Shown here piece after piece: positions 15,016 to 18,516 of a stretch of 25,096 nt of DNA (its first letter is position 1; every line of letters starts with the position of its first letter). The position numbers were made by a program, and so were the translations under genes. The DNA is from Alphaproteobacteria bacterium (GTDB taxonomy: Bacteria > Pseudomonadota > Alphaproteobacteria > Rs-D84). Location: assembly GCA_031549365.1 (NCBI GenBank), contig JAVBPX010000008.1, positions 1 through 25,096 of the forward strand, read 5' to 3'. The notes under the pieces were generated by a model. It was given only the letters and a program-made list of their open reading frames with translations, had not been told where the DNA came from and ran no database searches.

Positions 15016-15045
15016 GCGCGCATATGAAATAACAAAGGATTTAAA

Positions 15046-15609
15046 ATGATGAACAATGGTAAAAAATTTGCAATGGCTGTATATTGCGGCGCCCGCGATG
15101 GGATTGATCCAATTTACCGTGAAATGGCTGAAAAATTGGGTAAATTAATGGCCGCGGAAAAAATCGGATTGGTATATGGCGGCGGCGATACGGGATTAAT
15201 GGGAACAGTTGCACGTTCGGTCCTCGAAAACGGCGGATCTGGCATCGGGATTACCACAGAATTAATATCAAAACGCGAACCTGTCTTGGCCGGAATGCCA
15301 ACCGAAGTCAAAGAAGATTTATTAAAACGCAAGGCCCGAATGATTGAATTATCCGACGCATTTTGCATTTTACCGGGCGGAATGGGCACAATGAACGAAG
15401 TAACCGACATCATGACCATGCACCAAATCGGCGAAACAAATTTACCAATCTACTTTTTAAACACAAACGGATACTGGAACAGATTTGGCGCAGTATTAAA
15501 CCACATGGTATCCCAGGGCTTCATCGGATCACAAACAGAATACAACATGACAATCTGTGACACCCCCGAAGACATAATCAAAGCATATAAATCACGTTTT
15601 TTTGAATAA
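15046..15609 (+). CDS. LOG-family (TIGR00730-like) nucleotide phosphoribohydrolase
   Basis: VYCGA, LVYGGG..GLMG, RKARMIELSDAF, PGGMGTMNE motif. Confidence 0.9.
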   Translation: MMNNGKKFAMAVYCGARDGIDPIYREMAEKLGKLMAAEKIGLVYGGGDTGLMGTVARSVLENGGSGIGITTELISKREPVLAGMPTEVKEDLLKRKARMIELSDAFCILPGGMGTMNEVTDIMTMHQIGETNLPIYFLNTNGYWNRFGAVLNHMVSQGFIGSQTEYNMTICDTPEDIIKAYKSRFFE

Positions 15610-15626
15610 AATTATATGATTTGCAC

Positions 15627-15654
15627 TTGACCCGAATCGAAAAGTCATTATAAT
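15627..15654 (+). promoter_or_regulatory. tRNA-Cys promoter
   Basis: TTGACC (15627-15632) - 16 bp - TATAAT (15649-15654), 10 nt upstream of the tRNA. Confidence 0.7.
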
Positions 15655-15664
15655 TATGCGTACT

Positions 15665-15738
15665 GGCCGGGTGGCAGAGTGGTTATGCAGAGGACTGCAA
15701 ATCCTTGTACGTCGGTTCGATTCCGGTCTCGGCCTCCA
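15665..15738 (+). tRNA. tRNA-Cys (GCA)
   Basis: 74 nt: acceptor GGCCGGG/CTCGGCC, anticodon arm GAGGA-CTGCAAA-TCCTT, T-loop TTCGATT, U73 discriminator, encoded CCA. Confidence 0.97.
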
Positions 15739-16169
15739 GTAATAAAAATATCCCCATTTATTGGGGATTTTTTGTTACTCCGATACTGGGATCGAACCGC
15801 GGTTCGCTTCGGAGTTGGGTTTTGCAAGTGTAACGCCGCGAAACTCTTACGAGAATGGAAAGGGGCCCACGAGTTTACGAGTGGGAATTACATTCCGGTC
15901 TCGGCCTCCAGAAAATAATAAACCATTCATACGAATGGTTTTTTGTTTTTTGGGGCAAAGGCCCTGGAATTGAACCGACCGCAACAAAGTTGCTCGGTTC
16001 GCTTCGGAGTAGGCAAGAACGAGCATTGCGAAGTTCGAGCCGTACGAGAATGGAAAGGGGCCCACAAATATATTTGTGGGAATTACATTCCGGTCTCGGC
16101 CTCCAGTAATAAAAATATCCCCATTTATTGAGGATTTTTTGTTACTCCGATACTGGGATCGAACCGCGG
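15720..16169 (+). repeat. tRNA-3'-end-linked tandem array of structured units (172 bp, 195 bp, plus 83-bp partial)
   Basis: ATTCCGGTCTCGGCCTCCAG at 15720, 15892 and 16087; shared blocks CGGTTCGCTTCGGAGT, TACGAGAATGGAAAGGGGCCCAC, GTGGGAATTAC; 16087-16169 matches 15720-15802 at 82/83. Confidence 0.92.
15739..15779 (+). terminator. Terminator-like hairpin after tRNA-Cys (analogues at 15911-15950 and 16106-16145)
   Basis: GTAATAAAAATATCCCCA-TTTAT-TGGGGATTTTTTGTTAC. Confidence 0.7.
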
Positions 16170-16324
16170 GCAAGAAAAATAACAAAGCTCAAAACATTTT
16201 AAATTACGATGATACGGCGGGTTCTTTTTATTTTCGAGAAAATCAAAAATATATAAAACACATCAAAACGAGTCATATAGACATTTTGTTTTTCAAAAAC
16301 CAAAGAGCGCGTACCATTTAAATG

Positions 16325-16452
16325 TAAAATCAGTCAAAACGTATCAGATGGTTGGGTTATTTTATTTTCAAGGGGTTGAGCGTATATAAACATACGTGAT
16401 ACCTCCGAGAAAATAAAAAACGCATCCAGATGATGCGTTTTCATTGATTTTA
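16325..16452. mobile_element. ERIC/RPE-like palindromic miniature element (128 bp, TA-flanked)
   Basis: Termini TAAAATCAGT / ATTGATTTTA; internal arms AAAACGTATCA/TGATGCGTTTT and TTTTATTTTC/GAAAATAAAA; core GAGCGTAT-ATAAAC-ATACGTGA; right TA coincides with the rpoD stop codon. Confidence 0.65.
16411..16441 (-). terminator. rpoD terminator nested in the palindromic element
   Basis: Minus strand AAAACGCATC-ATCTG-GATGCGTTTTTTATTT just after the stop. Confidence 0.65.
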
Positions 16453-18516
16453 ATCTTCGACAAAACTGCGAAGTTTCCGCGCCCTCGAAGGATGCTTCAA
16501 TTTATTCAACGCCTTTTGTTCAATCTGACGAATACGTTCACGTGTAACGCCAATGTATTCTCCAACTTCTTCCAATGTTGATGTTTTGTTCGTGCTCATC
16601 CCGAAACGTTGACGCAATACTGTTTCTTCCTTTGGATCCAATGTCGATAAAATCGAAGTAACAATGTTACGCAAATTCTTTTGGGCGGCGGATGTAAACG
16701 GATCAATCGCATTGTCGTCCTGGATAATATCCATACGTGTACTGTCGTCTTCGTTACCAACCGGGGATTCCAAACTGATCGGCTTTAAATTAATCTTCAT
16801 CGCTTTGTGAATTTTATCCACAGGCATATAAACAATTTTCGCCAATTCTTCGGCCGTCGGAGTACGTCCATGCTTGTGTAAAAATTGACGCGATGCCTTT
16901 TTAATTTTATTAATATTTTCAATCATATGAACTGGGATTCGAATTGTTCTGGCCTGATCCGCGATTGAACGGGAAATACCCTGTTGAATCCAACATGTTG
17001 CATACGTTGAAAATTTATAACCCAAACGATAATCAAATTTATCCACAGCTTTCATCAAACCGATATTCCCATCCTGGACCAAATCTGGAAATTCCAATCC
17101 CAATCCACGGTTTGAATATTTTTTCGCAGATTTGATAACCAAACGCAAATTGGCTTCGATCATTTCACGTTTTGCACGTGCAGCTTCGGTCTGACCTTTT
17201 TTTACCAATTCAACAACCTTGCGATATTCACCGGTCGGCAAGCCAGTTTCGGTCGCAATAGCACTGATTTCTGATTGAATTTTTTGAATATCCTTGGCGT
17301 GATTTTTCACAAATCTTTCCCACGCAGGCGACTTGATTTTTGAAATCTTTTTAATCCAATTTGGATTCAATTCGTTACCCTGATATTGTTCCAAAAAATC
17401 TTCGCGTTTAACTTTGGATGCCAGAGCCAAACGTAATAATTTACCCTCTAATCCCATCAATAATTGATTGCGGGCGGTCAAAGCTTCCAATATTTCGTTA
17501 ACTCGATCATCGTGCAAACGAATTTTTGTAACCAATTCGAATAATTCAGCACGAACTTTAACATATTTCTTTTCCAATGCTTCATCCGATTTGTTTGATT
17601 CAATCAAATCGAACAAACGTTGCTTTTGCAATTTTTCAAATTGTGTAAATATTTTTTTAATTTGCGCAAACAAATCCAATACAACAGGCAATAAATTTTC
17701 TTCCATTACTGAAATCGGCGTACCGGACGCACCACGATTCATATCATCTGAATCTTCGCCCAATTCTTCGGTTTCATCCACCACAGATTCTTCATCCAAC
17801 GTATCTTCCAAATCTTCGTCATCCAAACCATCAATATCATCAACACCCTTGGCACGCATAACCATATCCAATTCTTTGACCGACTTCATATCAGCATCAG
17901 ACGAATACATAACATCCAAATTAATAATGTAACGTAATTTTATTTCGTCATTCAATAATTGTTGATACCAATTTAACATAGATCGAATTGTCATAGGCGA
18001 TTCACACAAACCATAAACCAATAAACGGCTGGCTGCTTCAATTCGTTGGGCAATTGCAACTTCGCCAGGCCCAGATAATAATTGAATCGAACCAATTGCC
18101 TTTAAATACGATTGAACAGAATCTTGAACCATTGTAACTGGCCCAATATTCGAATTATTTAATTGTTTTGCATAAAAATCATATTCTTCGTCATCAAATT
18201 CCAACAAATCATTATTAGCATCAAAAGGATTACGATTTTTCATTCTGGAATTTGTTTCGTCTTCTTCCTCTTCAACACGTTCCAAAACCGGAACTTCAGA
18301 CTCCAAAATTTCCAACCCTAAATCTTGTTTAAAAAATGATAATACTTCGTCCAATTGATCATCAACCAATTCGTCATTTTCGGCCGCGGCATTAAATTCC
18401 ATTAACGAGAGATAGCCCGATTCACTTGCGTGTTGGGCTAAATCTTTTAAATTTTCCGGCAAAGTATCAATTAAAAACTGTGTCGCAGTATCAATATTTA
18501 TATTTGGTTTCGTCAT
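16450..18516 (-). CDS. rpoD: Primary RNA polymerase sigma factor sigma70
   Basis: 688 aa with region 1.1, acidic non-conserved region, EANLRLV, GNIGLMKAVDKF, ADQARTIRIPVHMIE, TLEEVG...VTRERIRQIE.KAL.KLKHPSR. Confidence 0.96.
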   Translation of the reverse strand: MTKPNINIDTATQFLIDTLPENLKDLAQHASESGYLSLMEFNAAAENDELVDDQLDEVLSFFKQDLGLEILESEVPVLERVEEEEDETNSRMKNRNPFDANNDLLEFDDEEYDFYAKQLNNSNIGPVTMVQDSVQSYLKAIGSIQLLSGPGEVAIAQRIEAASRLLVYGLCESPMTIRSMLNWYQQLLNDEIKLRYIINLDVMYSSDADMKSVKELDMVMRAKGVDDIDGLDDEDLEDTLDEESVVDETEELGEDSDDMNRGASGTPISVMEENLLPVVLDLFAQIKKIFTQFEKLQKQRLFDLIESNKSDEALEKKYVKVRAELFELVTKIRLHDDRVNEILEALTARNQLLMGLEGKLLRLALASKVKREDFLEQYQGNELNPNWIKKISKIKSPAWERFVKNHAKDIQKIQSEISAIATETGLPTGEYRKVVELVKKGQTEAARAKREMIEANLRLVIKSAKKYSNRGLGLEFPDLVQDGNIGLMKAVDKFDYRLGYKFSTYATCWIQQGISRSIADQARTIRIPVHMIENINKIKKASRQFLHKHGRTPTAEELAKIVYMPVDKIHKAMKINLKPISLESPVGNEDDSTRMDIIQDDNAIDPFTSAAQKNLRNIVTSILSTLDPKEETVLRQRFGMSTNKTSTLEEVGEYIGVTRERIRQIEQKALNKLKHPSRARKLRSFVED

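What the first reader, a model, noticed from the sequence alone, without database searches (positions are those of the whole stretch)
15720..16169. tRNA-Cys-anchored array of structured RNA-like cassettes with conserved scaffold and variable hairpins
Seen: the tRNA 3' end plus one base (20 bp, including CCA) recurs at 15720, 15892 and 16087. Units 1 and 2 share fixed blocks (CTGGRATYGAACCG; CGGTTCGCTTCGGAGT; TACGAGAATGGAAAGGGGCCCAC; GTGGGAATTAC) separated by four segments that differ in sequence yet each still forms a hairpin: ATCCCCA/TGGGGAT vs AACCATTC/GAATGGTT; no insert vs GCAAC/GTTGC; GGGTTTTGC/GCGAAACTC vs GGC..GAAC/GTTC..GCC; CCCAC-loop-GTGGG vs CCCACAAAT/ATTTGTGGG. Structure kept despite sequence turnover implies selection on a single-stranded form. 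Known analogues: E. coli tyrT repeats carrying the tRNA 3' end, and att-site duplications. No integrase is in the window. Inference: non-autonomous tRNA-targeting mini-elements or a processed ncRNA array; best candidate for an undescribed system.
Basis: partly seen in the sequence, partly recalled or inferred. Interest (0 to 1): 0.85.

Follow-up and report, generated by a model that had tools for sequence, protein, structure and literature searches.

The report
Structured cassettes that copy tRNA ends
Behind the tRNA-Cys gene lie two and a half copies of a small folded DNA/RNA cassette, apparently undescribed, that in one family of tiny-genome gut bacteria settles behind many different tRNA genes and each time carries a copy of that tRNA's own 3' end.

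Summary
The 19-nt tRNA-Cys 3' end occurs three times exactly (0 expected), and units 1 and 2 share the stated blocks and hairpins. A third unit is cut off at 16169.

The same scaffold sits elsewhere in this 0.91-Mb alphaproteobacterial genome. One copy follows tRNA-Arg(CCT) and one follows an unidentified tRNA-like-ended RNA, and each carries that RNA's own 3' end.

A covariance model of the core finds it in 124 of 151 genomes of the same family, with up to 18 copies per genome. In other families of the order it was found in 1 of 29 genomes. Of 64 copies examined, 55 follow a same-strand tRNA, covering 18 isoacceptors.

Each cassette has four parts:
- its own terminator;
- a decayed inverted copy of the tRNA's T-arm and acceptor 3' strand;
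- a conserved core of three covarying helices with invariant joints;
- tRNA positions 61-76.

At the tRNA-His locus of 30 species, 14 are occupied, 13 are empty and 3 are uninformative. Cores cluster both by locus across species and by genome across loci.

Rfam 15, phage, plasmid and viral collections gave no real match, and four literature searches found no description. No reverse transcriptase or transposase is present.

Best reading (0.5): a non-autonomous mobile or duplicative structured cassette that targets tRNA gene 3' ends. Main rival (0.27): a tRNA-linked processed ncRNA. The mechanism is unresolved.

The parts
15627..15654 (+). Sigma-70-like promoter of tRNA-Cys (TTGACC-16-TATAAT)
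   Evidence: 11 of 12 consensus positions. It is the only promoter-like site on the + strand in 15550-16500.
15665..15738 (+). tRNA-Cys(GCA), with encoded CCA. This is the host gene of the array.
   Evidence: Rfam tRNA, 57.8 bits.
15739..15910 (+). Cassette unit 1, complete, type A. It runs terminator, arm, core, then the tRNA 3' end.
   Evidence: Model R1 matches 15801-15909 at 90.4 bits.
15750..15774 (.). Unit 1 terminator-like hairpin ATCCCCA/TGGGGAT plus a T run. It has the same form on both strands.
15780..15799 (+). Unit 1 'arm': an inverted copy of the tRNA-Cys T-arm and acceptor 3' strand. It can pair with the 3' copy at 15892-15904 (P1).
   Evidence: pair I3: 85% complementary to 15713-15732. 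One search gives a duplex of -18.7 kcal/mol.
15793..15806 (+). P2 palindrome CGAACCG|CGGTTCG. Its second half (GGTTCG) is the T-arm-5'-half look-alike that opens the conserved core.
   Evidence: (D5, I13).
15807..15865 (+). Unit 1 long irregular hairpin. It comprises the P5 flanks, P3 (GGGTTTTGC 15817-15825 with GCGAAACTC 15838-15846), and the invariant joint TTACGAGAATGGAAAGGGG.
15866..15885 (+). Unit 1 P4 hairpin CCCAC-loop-GTGGG.
   Evidence: The loop sequence is nearly identical to that of the cassette on contig C14.
15886..15891 (+). Invariant joint AATTAC, which together with the following AAT/ATT forms a T-loop 3'-half look-alike.
15892..15910 (+). Direct copy of the tRNA-Cys 3' end. 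Bases 15895-15910 correspond to tRNA positions 61-76.
15911..16105 (+). Cassette unit 2, complete, type A. It has a different terminator (15920-15941), arm (about 15960-15979), extra P2 hairpin (15981-15993), P3 (16012-16020 with 16033-16041) and P4 (16061-16080). Its tRNA 3' end copy is at 16087-16105.
   Evidence: R1 matches 15996-16104 at 102.6 bits.
16106..16169 (+). Truncated unit 3: terminator-like hairpin (16117-16135, with one G-to-A change) plus the arm (16147-16166). It stops at the P2 centre.
   Evidence: family D1: an 83-nt repeat of 15720-15802 at 99% identity..

Best explanation
The array consists of copies of a small (about 150-195 nt), gene-less, structure-bearing cassette that colonises the 3' flank of tRNA genes. 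It belongs to a family confined, in the genomes searched, to one family of 0.6-1.1-Mb gut Alphaproteobacteria. Named relatives are Candidatus Enterousia MAGs.

Shown:
- A cassette begins directly after the tRNA's CCA.
- It brings its own terminator-like hairpin, so the tRNA gene keeps an intact end and a terminator.
- Next comes a more or less decayed inverted copy of the tRNA's T-arm and acceptor 3' strand.
- Then comes a conserved core. The core opens like the 5' half of a T-arm (GGTTCGA), folds into three covarying helices joined by invariant single-stranded blocks, and closes with AATTACAAT.
- It ends with a direct copy of the host tRNA's positions 61-76.
- Cassettes pile up in tandem. They are present or absent at the same locus in related species.
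- They are found behind at least 18 different tRNA isoacceptors, with the ends matched to each.

Inferred:
- The cassette is a non-autonomous, selfish insertion/duplication element. It enters, or is copied in, across the last 16-24 nt of the tRNA gene: the tRNA end plus a few A/T-rich bases.
- New copies land next to the tRNA, and older or partial copies are pushed distally.
- It can move to a new tRNA locus within a genome, where both the direct and the inverted target copies are made from the new target.
- The conserved folded core is the cis-acting part, read as a single strand (RNA or single-stranded DNA) by a trans-acting host or helper enzyme that I could not identify.
For: Position and make-up:
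- 55 of 64 R1 matches examined have a same-strand tRNA just upstream (57-85 nt to the core for first units). They cover 18 isoacceptors and 12 amino acids.
- 34 of those 55 carry the tRNA's last 16 nt exactly.
- In the own genome the same scaffold follows tRNA-Cys, tRNA-Arg(CCT) and another RNA, each with its own 3' end.

Selfish-element hallmarks:
- Copy number runs from 0 to 18 per genome, with matches in 124 of 151 family genomes.
- At the tRNA-His locus of 30 species, 14 are occupied, 13 have no copy and 3 are uninformative.
- Empty sites (L072, L088) and occupied sites (L069, L085) share their flanks. The insert lies exactly between the CCA plus TTATAAAA and the native terminator.
- In L082 and L083 the cassette's own terminator differs from the native distal one.
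- Truncated and degenerate copies are common.
- Many copies lie at contig ends.

Movement between loci:
- Seven G014 cassettes at six different tRNAs (Val, Tyr x2, Ser, Arg-TCT, Leu, Glu) form one clade (98/41). The six without Val group at 99/94*.
- Window unit 1 and the cassette on contig C14 share an almost identical variable P4 loop.

Structure under constraint:
- In P3 and P4, 97.0% of cells pair, against 78.5% in shuffles. Ten of 13 pairs show double-sided changes, the covariation score is 0.444 against 0.127, and 0 of 500 shuffles reach it. All slid registers score far lower.
- For P5, the helix score with a cassette's own partner is 9.68 against 8.15 with permuted partners, with 0 of 2000 permutations reaching it.

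No promoter-like site precedes the cassettes, and each is preceded by a terminator.
Against: - No enzyme was found. G000 has no reverse transcriptase, no IS110 transposase, no Y1 transposase and no TnpB above cut-off. It has only two Xer-like recombinases, one catalytically degenerate P4-like integrase homologue and one large serine recombinase.
- G014, with 18 copies, has 3 tyrosine recombinases and no RT.
- I can offer no worked-out reaction that makes both a direct and an inverted copy of each new target.
- The core is a four-way junction with about 35 invariant unpaired bases. That looks more like a functional RNA than like the simple hairpins of known DNA recombination sites.
- Arg(ACG) cassettes of 7 genomes form a locus-specific clade (100/96*), so much of the spread is vertical.
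- Presence/absence can also arise by deletion between the direct repeats.
- Genome-specific clades can arise by gene conversion rather than transposition.
- No excision joint or empty-site variant was seen in the one DNA run laid (contigs only).
- The covariation counts were made on an alignment fitted to the model and on related sequences.
Confidence: 0.5

Rival explanations
1. A host-used family of tRNA-linked non-coding RNAs. Read-through from the strong tRNA promoter would transcribe the cassette. It would fold into a cloverleaf-like four-way junction: P1 from arm and 3' end, then P2, P5/P3 and P4. Alternatively it would fold into an acceptor/T-arm mimic, with the core inserted where T-loops tolerate insertions (after position 58). 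It would be trimmed at the same CCA context as the tRNA and act with, or as a decoy for, tRNA-binding factors.
For: - The conservation pattern is that of functional RNAs: variable, covarying stems and invariant joints.
- Minimum-free-energy folds of 20 cassettes repeatedly give the four-way junction.
- In the paired columns G.U-type pairs (9) outnumber A.C-type pairs (3) on the + strand.
- In older cassettes the 3' copy departs from the tRNA only in mid-acceptor, the same way in three genomes (Asp cassettes).
- Cassettes persist in very small genomes in 124 of 151 family members, and by locus across species.
Against: - A terminator-like hairpin precedes every cassette and no promoter-like site does.
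- Distal units of arrays would sit behind several terminators.
- Occupancy is erratic: 13 of 30 His loci lack a copy, and copy number runs from 0 to 18.
- Decayed copies are common.
- The arm often covers the CCA and bases beyond it, as a DNA copy would.
- The duplex-energy comparison of the two strands was inconclusive: -314.7 against -300.2 kcal/mol summed over 19 cassettes.
Confidence: 0.27
2. An RNA-guided system. The core would be a protein-binding scaffold and the 16-nt tRNA end at its 3' side would be a guide, as in TnpB omega RNAs or in the delocalised crRNAs that home type V-K CRISPR transposons to tRNA genes. The near-universal T-loop next to the target would serve as the adjacent motif. 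The cassette's own AATTACAAT in place of TTCGAAT would mark 'self'.
For: - The architecture is a scaffold of about 100 nt, then 16 nt identical to a genomic target, then a terminator.
- The bases before the guide differ from the tRNA's own T-loop in Leu, Val and Arg cassettes.
- Tandem accumulation next to an intact target is what repeated homing would give.
Against: - G000 has no TnpB above cut-off (best 20.7 bits in a 62-aa frame) and no IS110 recombinase. IscB and Cas12 were not searched.
- No conserved neighbouring gene was seen in the loci read.
- A nuclease guided to an intact, essential tRNA gene would be suicidal.
- No transcript is shown.
Confidence: 0.08
3. Scars of classical integrative elements. 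On this reading each unit is what is left of an island or prophage (its attP arms plus the attR core) that entered the tRNA gene through its own tyrosine integrase and later lost its genes.
For: - Direct repeats of the tRNA 3' end starting in or next to the T-loop are the signature of tRNA-targeting integrases (recalled knowledge).
- P4-like integrase homologues occur in these genomes.
Against: - None of the 64 cores examined lies at the far end of a gene-bearing island. All are 57-430 nt from the tRNA, at locus starts, or behind the unidentified RNA.
- The units have uniform boundaries.
- The same core serves 18 tRNA isoacceptors.
- Searches of phage records and plasmid records gave no match. 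The two IMG/VR pattern hits are coding sequence.
- The number of integrases per genome (3-7) does not follow cassette number.
Confidence: 0.06
4. Purely local tandem duplication of the tRNA gene's 3' flank by slippage or unequal crossing-over, as proposed for the E. coli tyrT repeats, with no mobility and no function.
For: - Partial terminal copies and near-identical neighbouring units occur: the 83-nt repeat in the window, L016, L018 and L021, and G014.
Against: - The same core occurs at three loci of this genome and behind 18 isoacceptors in the family.
- Neighbouring units can be of different types or differ in every stem.
- The stems covary.
Confidence: 0.05

Closest known systems
E. coli tyrT-locus repeats / rtT RNA (Rfam RF00391). 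Biology recalled, not read here.
   Same: Tandem units of about 170-180 nt behind a tRNA gene, each containing the last roughly 19 nt of that tRNA including CCA, with a partial last copy.
   Different: The tyrT repeats belong to one locus and one tRNA. Here one conserved core is combined with the ends of at least 18 isoacceptors in 124 of 151 genomes of a family. There is no Rfam match to rtT at gathering or E-value thresholds. Each unit also has its own terminator and an inverted target copy.
Integron cassettes with folded attC sites, and the folded single-stranded attP of CTX phage (recalled).
   Same: Gene-poor units stacked in arrays at one site. Structure is conserved while sequence turns over. 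An inverted and a direct copy can fold into a duplex that imitates the target site.
   Different: No IntI-type integrase was recognised: 3 tyrosine recombinases in G000, two Xer-like and one degenerate P4-like. The fold is a multi-helix junction with long invariant joints, not a single imperfect hairpin. The target is a tRNA gene end that changes from locus to locus.
Integrative elements at tRNA genes and their non-autonomous derivatives (CIMEs, tandem accretion) (recalled).
   Same: Insertion directly at the tRNA 3' end, flanked by direct repeats of that end. The tRNA gene is kept intact. Elements accumulate in tandem and lack their own integrase.
   Different: These units are only 150-195 nt with no genes at all. 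One scaffold serves many tRNA targets. An inverted target copy is present. No active helper integrase that follows the cassette distribution was identified.
Guide-bearing RNAs of mobile elements: TnpB omega RNA, IS110 bridge RNA, and the tRNA-homing crRNA of type V-K CRISPR transposons (recalled).
   Same: A structured scaffold joined to a short stretch (here 16 nt) identical to a genomic target. The stretch sits at the 3' side of the scaffold, at the edge of an inserted unit.
   Different: G000 has no TnpB above cut-off and no IS110 recombinase gene. No transcript is shown. The target stays intact next to the cassette.
MITEs and REP/REPIN-type extragenic repeats (recalled).
   Same: Small, non-coding, multi-copy, hairpin-rich repeats in intergenic DNA of bacteria. 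They are mobilised, if at all, in trans.
   Different: There are no constant terminal inverted repeats, because the inverted parts are copies of the local tRNA. Location is strictly behind tRNA genes. No RAYT/Y1 transposase is present.

Membership tests
rtT RNA / tyrT repeats | Match to the Rfam model RF00391 | tested here: not met
   cmscan of the window at gathering threshold, of 15600-16450 at E up to 10, and of L029 1425-1650: no rtT match.
rtT RNA / tyrT repeats | Units contain the 3' end of the upstream tRNA and lie in tandem behind it | tested here: met
rtT RNA / tyrT repeats | Repeat confined to one tRNA locus and derived from its own flank | tested here: not met
   The same core occurs at 3 loci of G000 and behind 18 isoacceptors.
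Integron attC cassette array | Integron-type tyrosine integrase (IntI) with attI next to the array | tested here: not met
   PF00589 gives 3 matches in G000, none on the window's contig. The third is a P4-like homologue without catalytic residues. IntI-specific models were not run.
Integron attC cassette array | Single imperfect hairpin with conserved R''/R' core sites | tested here: not met
   The fold is a multi-helix junction. I saw no attC core motif in the sequences read, but I ran no motif search for it.
Integrative element at a tRNA gene (with or without its own integrase) | Direct repeats of the tRNA 3' end flank the insert and the tRNA gene is restored | tested here: met
Integrative element at a tRNA gene (with or without its own integrase) | Integrase encoded in the element, or an identifiable helper whose presence follows the element | tested here: not met
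   The units contain no genes. The integrase count does not follow the cassette count. The conserved P4-like homologue lacks catalytic residues and was not found in G014, which has 18 cassettes.
MITE | Constant terminal inverted repeats and a short target-site duplication | tested here: not met
   The inverted segments are copies of each local tRNA. The duplicated target is 16-24 nt or more.
TnpB/IscB omega RNA | Adjacent or genome-resident TnpB/IscB gene | tested here: not met
   PF07282: best match 20.7 bits, below the cut-off, in a 62-aa frame on contig C7. IscB was not searched.
IS110 bridge RNA | IS110-type DEDD recombinase | tested here: not met
   PF01548: 0 matches in G000.
Retron ncRNA / retroelement | Reverse transcriptase | tested here: not met
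   PF00078: 0 matches in G000. Present in 1 of 5 high-copy genomes, and none in G014.
tRNA or tmRNA gene | Recognised by ARAGORN or by the Rfam tRNA/tmRNA models | tested here: not met
   Only tRNA-Cys is called in the window. The genome's two-piece tmRNA lies on contig C2.
Structured RNA (generic) | Helices supported by compensatory changes | tested here: met
   P3, P4; P5. Caveat: the alignment was fitted to the model and the sequences are related.
Structured RNA (generic) | Transcribed as a discrete RNA | tested here: inconclusive
   Only contigs of one metatranscriptome were available. They cover the two flanking genes but not 15610-16443, which is no evidence either way.

The most novel reading that the evidence does not exclude
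The cassettes are a self-retargeting mobile RNA (or single-stranded DNA) element of a kind not yet described. A conserved, ribozyme- or RNP-like core uses the near-universal T-loop of tRNA genes as its landmark. It copies the adjacent tRNA end both directly and in inverted form when it lands. It spreads through a tiny genome without any element-encoded protein, relying on a host tRNA-handling or recombination enzyme. The family-wide, catalytically dead P4-like integrase homologue is one conceivable DNA-binding partner.
Probability: 0.2. Interest if true: 0.92.

Novelty: new variant of a known kind. Interest (0 to 1): 0.78.

Why it matters
If the reading holds, this is a new class of small non-coding repeat with three unusual properties together. 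It is strictly tied to tRNA gene ends. It is re-addressable to any tRNA. It is built around a conserved multi-helix fold. It is abundant (up to 18 copies) in genomes of under 1 Mb, where spare DNA is normally purged.

It raises a concrete, testable question: how can an element without a transposase, integrase or reverse transcriptase copy a target both directly and in inverted form? It may lead to a new recombination or guide principle, or to a new tRNA-mimicking RNA family.

Practically, the cassettes break assemblies of these gut bacteria, since many lie at contig ends. The covariance model built here would let them be annotated.

Tried and rejected
- Exact two-block pattern in 60 relatives: 0 of 60 matched. 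The pattern was too strict, because the covariance model later found the family in 124 of 151 genomes.
- JGI metagenome scan: only 2 loci.
- Phage records and plasmid records: no match. The 2 IMG/VR pattern hits are coding sequence, that is chance.
- Rfam at permissive thresholds gave nothing meaningful.
- RNA evidence: contigs of metatranscriptome run X2 cover the flanking genes (15034-15602 and 16444-17048) but nothing in 15610-16443. Run X3 has nothing on the stretch. With contigs only, this says nothing about expression.
- Strand test by arm:3'-end duplex energy was inconclusive. The G.U versus A.C count of 9 versus 3 gives only a weak lean to the + strand.
- Enzyme searches in G000: RT, IS110, TnpB, Y1 transposase and RtcB were absent or below cut-off. 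RT was found in 1 of 5 high-copy genomes.
- The third tyrosine recombinase looked promising, being P4-like, which is the tRNA-targeting type. It lacks the catalytic Arg, His-x-x-Arg and Tyr in 9 aligned homologues and was not found in G014. I therefore do not claim it as the mobilising enzyme.
- I considered whether the unidentified host RNA on contig C14 is the tmRNA. It is not: the alpha-type tmRNA is on contig C2.
- I considered tmRNA-like, RNase P-like and T-box-like readings of the GGTTCGAC and GGAAAG motifs. No model supports them.
- Literature: four searches (search listings and abstract starts only, no paper read) found no description. This is not proof that none exists, and supplements were not available.
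Full report
OBSERVATION. The window is contig C5 of a 911-kb, 15-contig genome estimated 97.6% complete. The genome is alphaproteobacterial: it has a two-piece alpha-type tmRNA (158 bits) on contig C2. tRNA-Cys(GCA) lies at 15665-15738 behind a near-consensus promoter. Its last 19 nt recur exactly at 15892 and 16087. No further site matches with up to 3 mismatches, and none appears in 100 shuffles. Two things were missed. First, 15720-15802 and 16087-16169 are an 83-nt repeat with one mismatch, so the third unit is only a terminator plus 'arm' and breaks off at 16169. Second, each unit contains an inverted copy of the tRNA's T-arm and acceptor 3' strand, for example 15780-15799 against 15713-15732 at 85%. 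DNA unitigs from an invertebrate-gut run cover the whole stretch without alternative joints.

ANATOMY. A unit reads, 5' to 3' on the + strand, as follows.
(i) An intrinsic-terminator-like hairpin with A and T runs on either side, of the same form on both strands.
(ii) The arm.
(iii) A short palindrome or hairpin, P2, whose second half is GGTTCG(A), the 5' half of a T-arm.
(iv) A long irregular hairpin. P5 is a 3-5-bp helix between the bases right after GGTTCGA and those right before GGAAAGG. Then come the conserved internal loops GATAGTTGG and CCTTACG, and then P3, often with a central G.A/A.G pair.
(v) The invariant GGAAAGGGG.
(vi) P4, CCCA...TGGG, with a variable top.
(vii) The invariant AATTAC plus AAT.
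(viii) tRNA positions 61-76: T-stem 3' strand, acceptor 3' strand, discriminator and CCA.
The 'ACAAT' belongs to the scaffold, not to the tRNA. It stays the same where the tRNA's own T-loop differs, as in the Leu, Val and Arg cassettes. The core therefore looks like an insertion into the T-loop of a copy of the tRNA's 3' part, preceded by an antisense copy of that part.

THE SAME SCAFFOLD WITH OTHER RNA ENDS. In the own genome the core recurs behind tRNA-Arg(CCT) at C1:108686-108854. It also recurs at C14:11398-11559 behind an RNA that neither ARAGORN nor Rfam recognises. Each copy is followed by that RNA's own 3' end. Two further cassettes have the same architecture but a different core ('type C', ending TTACTACAC plus 13 nt of the tRNA end). 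They follow tRNA-Lys(CTT) and tRNA-Glu(CTC). In another genome an array alternates type A with a 'type B' whose 3' domain differs.

DISTRIBUTION. A two-block pattern found 11 loci in species-representative genomes. They are labelled Alphaproteobacteria or Candidatus Enterousia, plus one labelled Muribaculaceae that is probably a mis-binned contig. The same pattern found 2 loci in JGI metagenomes. All are directly behind a tRNA and a terminator. A covariance model, R1, built from 13 long-form cores matches 124 of 151 genomes of the same family at E <= 1e-3. That covers 12 of 18 genera, and 106 of 109 genomes in the largest genus. There are more than 500 matches, up to 18 per genome, and many lie at contig ends. 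In a sample of the order at E <= 1e-5 it matches 78 of 91 genomes of this family and 1 of 29 genomes of five other families. Of 64 stronger matches that I tabulated, 55 have a same-strand tRNA upstream. These cover 18 isoacceptors and 12 amino acids. The other 9 lie at locus starts, behind the unidentified RNA, or (one, L103) behind nothing I identified. Thirty-four of the 55 carry the tRNA's last 16 nt exactly. The other 21 differ at 1-9 positions, mostly in the middle of the acceptor strand, and a few of these counts are affected by Ns or interrupted copies.

STRUCTURE. On the alignment of 58 matches (54 distinct), 97.0% of cells in P3 and P4 pair, against 78.5% after shuffling. Ten of 13 pairs show changes on both sides. 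The covariation score is 0.444 against 0.127, and 0 of 500 shuffles reach it. Every slid register scores far lower. P5 is register-variable, so I tested it without an alignment. The helix score with a cassette's own partner averages 9.68 against 8.15 with other cassettes' partners, and 0 of 2000 permutations reach it. Examples are ACCCG:CGGGG, AGCCG:TGGCG, ACACG:CGTGT and TCTGC:GCGGA. Minimum-energy folds of 20 cassettes mostly give a four-way junction closed by arm:3'-end pairing. Three caveats apply. The alignment is fitted to the model. The sequences are related. Palindrome-templated mutation in DNA could also produce paired changes. Which strand folds is not settled. Among paralogs whose joints are identical, the stems differ at almost every position. 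This holds for window units 1 and 2, and for the G014 Arg, Leu and Glu cassettes. I cannot explain it.

INSERTION BEHAVIOUR. I examined the tRNA-Ala/tRNA-His locus of 30 species of the largest genus. Fourteen have one or two copies of the tRNA-His end downstream. Thirteen have none within 3 mismatches, though three of those show other cassette-like remnants. Three loci end too early to tell. Empty and occupied sites share their flanks. In the occupied sites the insert of terminator, arm, core and tRNA end lies exactly after CCA, and a few A/T-rich bases are shared on both sides. In two species the cassette's own terminator differs from the native, distal one. Arrays commonly end in a partial unit of terminator plus arm, as in the window. 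The arm carries an element-specific motif, (A/G)TGAGAACC, where the complement of the T-loop would be expected. It often extends over CCA and beyond, so it is a copy of the gene rather than of the mature tRNA.

DESCENT. In a tree of 62 distinct cores, Arg(ACG) cassettes of seven genomes form one clade (100/96*). That indicates vertical descent at a locus. Seven cassettes of genome G014 at six different tRNAs form another clade (98/41), and the six without Val group at 99/94*. That indicates spread or homogenisation within a genome. The alignment has few columns and many forks are unresolved. Window unit 1 and the C14 cassette share a nearly identical P4 loop.

ENZYMES AND EXPRESSION. G000 has no RT, IS110 transposase or Y1 transposase, and no TnpB above cut-off. 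It has two Xer-like recombinases, one large serine recombinase and one P4-like integrase homologue. That homologue is conserved in 90 of 91 family genomes sampled. It lies in conserved gene order in five of the six genomes for which flanks were fetched (L108-L110, L112, L113). It has lost the catalytic Arg, His-x-x-Arg and Tyr. It was not found in G014, which has 18 cassettes. G014 has 3 tyrosine recombinases and no RT. No promoter-like site precedes the cassettes. The only RNA data available, contigs of one metatranscriptome, do not bear on the question.

INTERPRETATION. The erratic occupancy, tandem growth, decayed copies, contig-breaking copy numbers and genome-specific clades are the marks of a selfish repeat. 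The strict position, the carried terminator and the target-matched ends point to entry at the tRNA gene's last 16-24 nt. The conserved multi-helix core must matter for propagation or for the host. I therefore put 0.5 on a non-autonomous mobile or duplicative cassette whose folded core is its cis-acting part. I put 0.27 on a host-used tRNA-linked ncRNA, and smaller weights on an RNA-guided system, classical island scars and pure local duplication. How both a direct and an inverted copy of each new tRNA end are produced without a recognisable recombinase, transposase or RT is not explained by any step I could show.

COMPARISON. The array looks like the E. coli tyrT/rtT repeats but fails the model match and the single-locus criterion. 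It behaves like integrative elements at tRNA genes and their gene-less derivatives, but has no integrase and many targets. It shares the 'folded single strand imitates the target' idea with attC and the attP of CTX phage, and the 'scaffold plus 16-nt target copy' layout with omega RNAs, but their proteins are absent. Four literature searches (listings only) and Rfam 15 gave no description. I rate it a new variant of known kinds of small non-coding mobile repeats, with a 0.2 chance of being something categorically new.

Noticed in passing
L003:1286-1396 (= G000:C14:11286-11396, + strand). Also L037 (reverse strand, about 1318-1428) and L043:1-140.: An RNA-like unit of about 105-110 nt with its own sigma-70-like promoter. 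It has a perfect T-arm and a tRNA-like 3' end (...GGTTCGAATCCTCTCGGGCACGCCA), but no matching 5' acceptor strand. ARAGORN and Rfam do not call it. In two other genomes a counterpart ending ...GGGCGCGCCA precedes cassettes that carry the tRNA-Arg(ACG) end.
   Followed up: partly
G000:C6:16746-16935 and G000:C15:34974-35134. An arm-only remnant lies near C15:35290.: Cassettes of the same architecture but with a different core ('type C', ending TTACTACAC plus 13 nt of the tRNA end). They follow tRNA-Lys(CTT) and tRNA-Glu(CTC). A possible further degenerate cassette follows tRNA-Glu(TTC) at about C1:2517-2730.
   Followed up: partly
L043:300-850: The array alternates type A units with a 'type B' unit that shares the P5/P3 domain. 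In place of GGAAAGGGGCCCA...TGGGAATTAC it has CCCCGACGGCAC-AAA-GTGCCAAGGGAATCC.
   Followed up: no
L024:880-1968 (= G000:C15:48241-49329). Homologues in L108-L115.: A P4-like integrase homologue (Arm-DNA-bind_3 plus Phage_int_M). It is conserved at about 36-45% identity in 90 of 91 sampled genomes of the family. It lies in conserved gene order in five of the six genomes for which flanks were fetched (L108-L110, L112, L113). It is shortened and lacks the catalytic Arg, His-x-x-Arg and Tyr. It looks like a domesticated DNA-binding protein.
   Followed up: partly
window:16170-16449: A 280-nt AT-rich non-coding stretch after the truncated unit. It contains degenerate direct and inverted repeats (families D3 and D4, pair I1), two weak promoter-like sites on the minus strand, and a bidirectional terminator at 16417-16441 that ends the convergent 688-aa gene.
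   Followed up: no
L014:1836-1900: In this tRNA-Leu(CAA) cassette the copy of the tRNA end is interrupted after CCGACCAG by about 44 nt of unrelated sequence, and then resumes with CACCA plus the terminator.
   Followed up: no
L011 (contig CAZJGX010000008.1): This cassette-bearing contig is labelled Muribaculaceae (Bacteroidota), whereas all other named hits are alphaproteobacterial. It is probably a binning error rather than a transfer.
   Followed up: no
L059 (= G000:C8:49297-49749 region): A 509-aa large serine recombinase lies about 3 kb from tRNA-Ser(GGA). It may mark a prophage or island.
   Followed up: no
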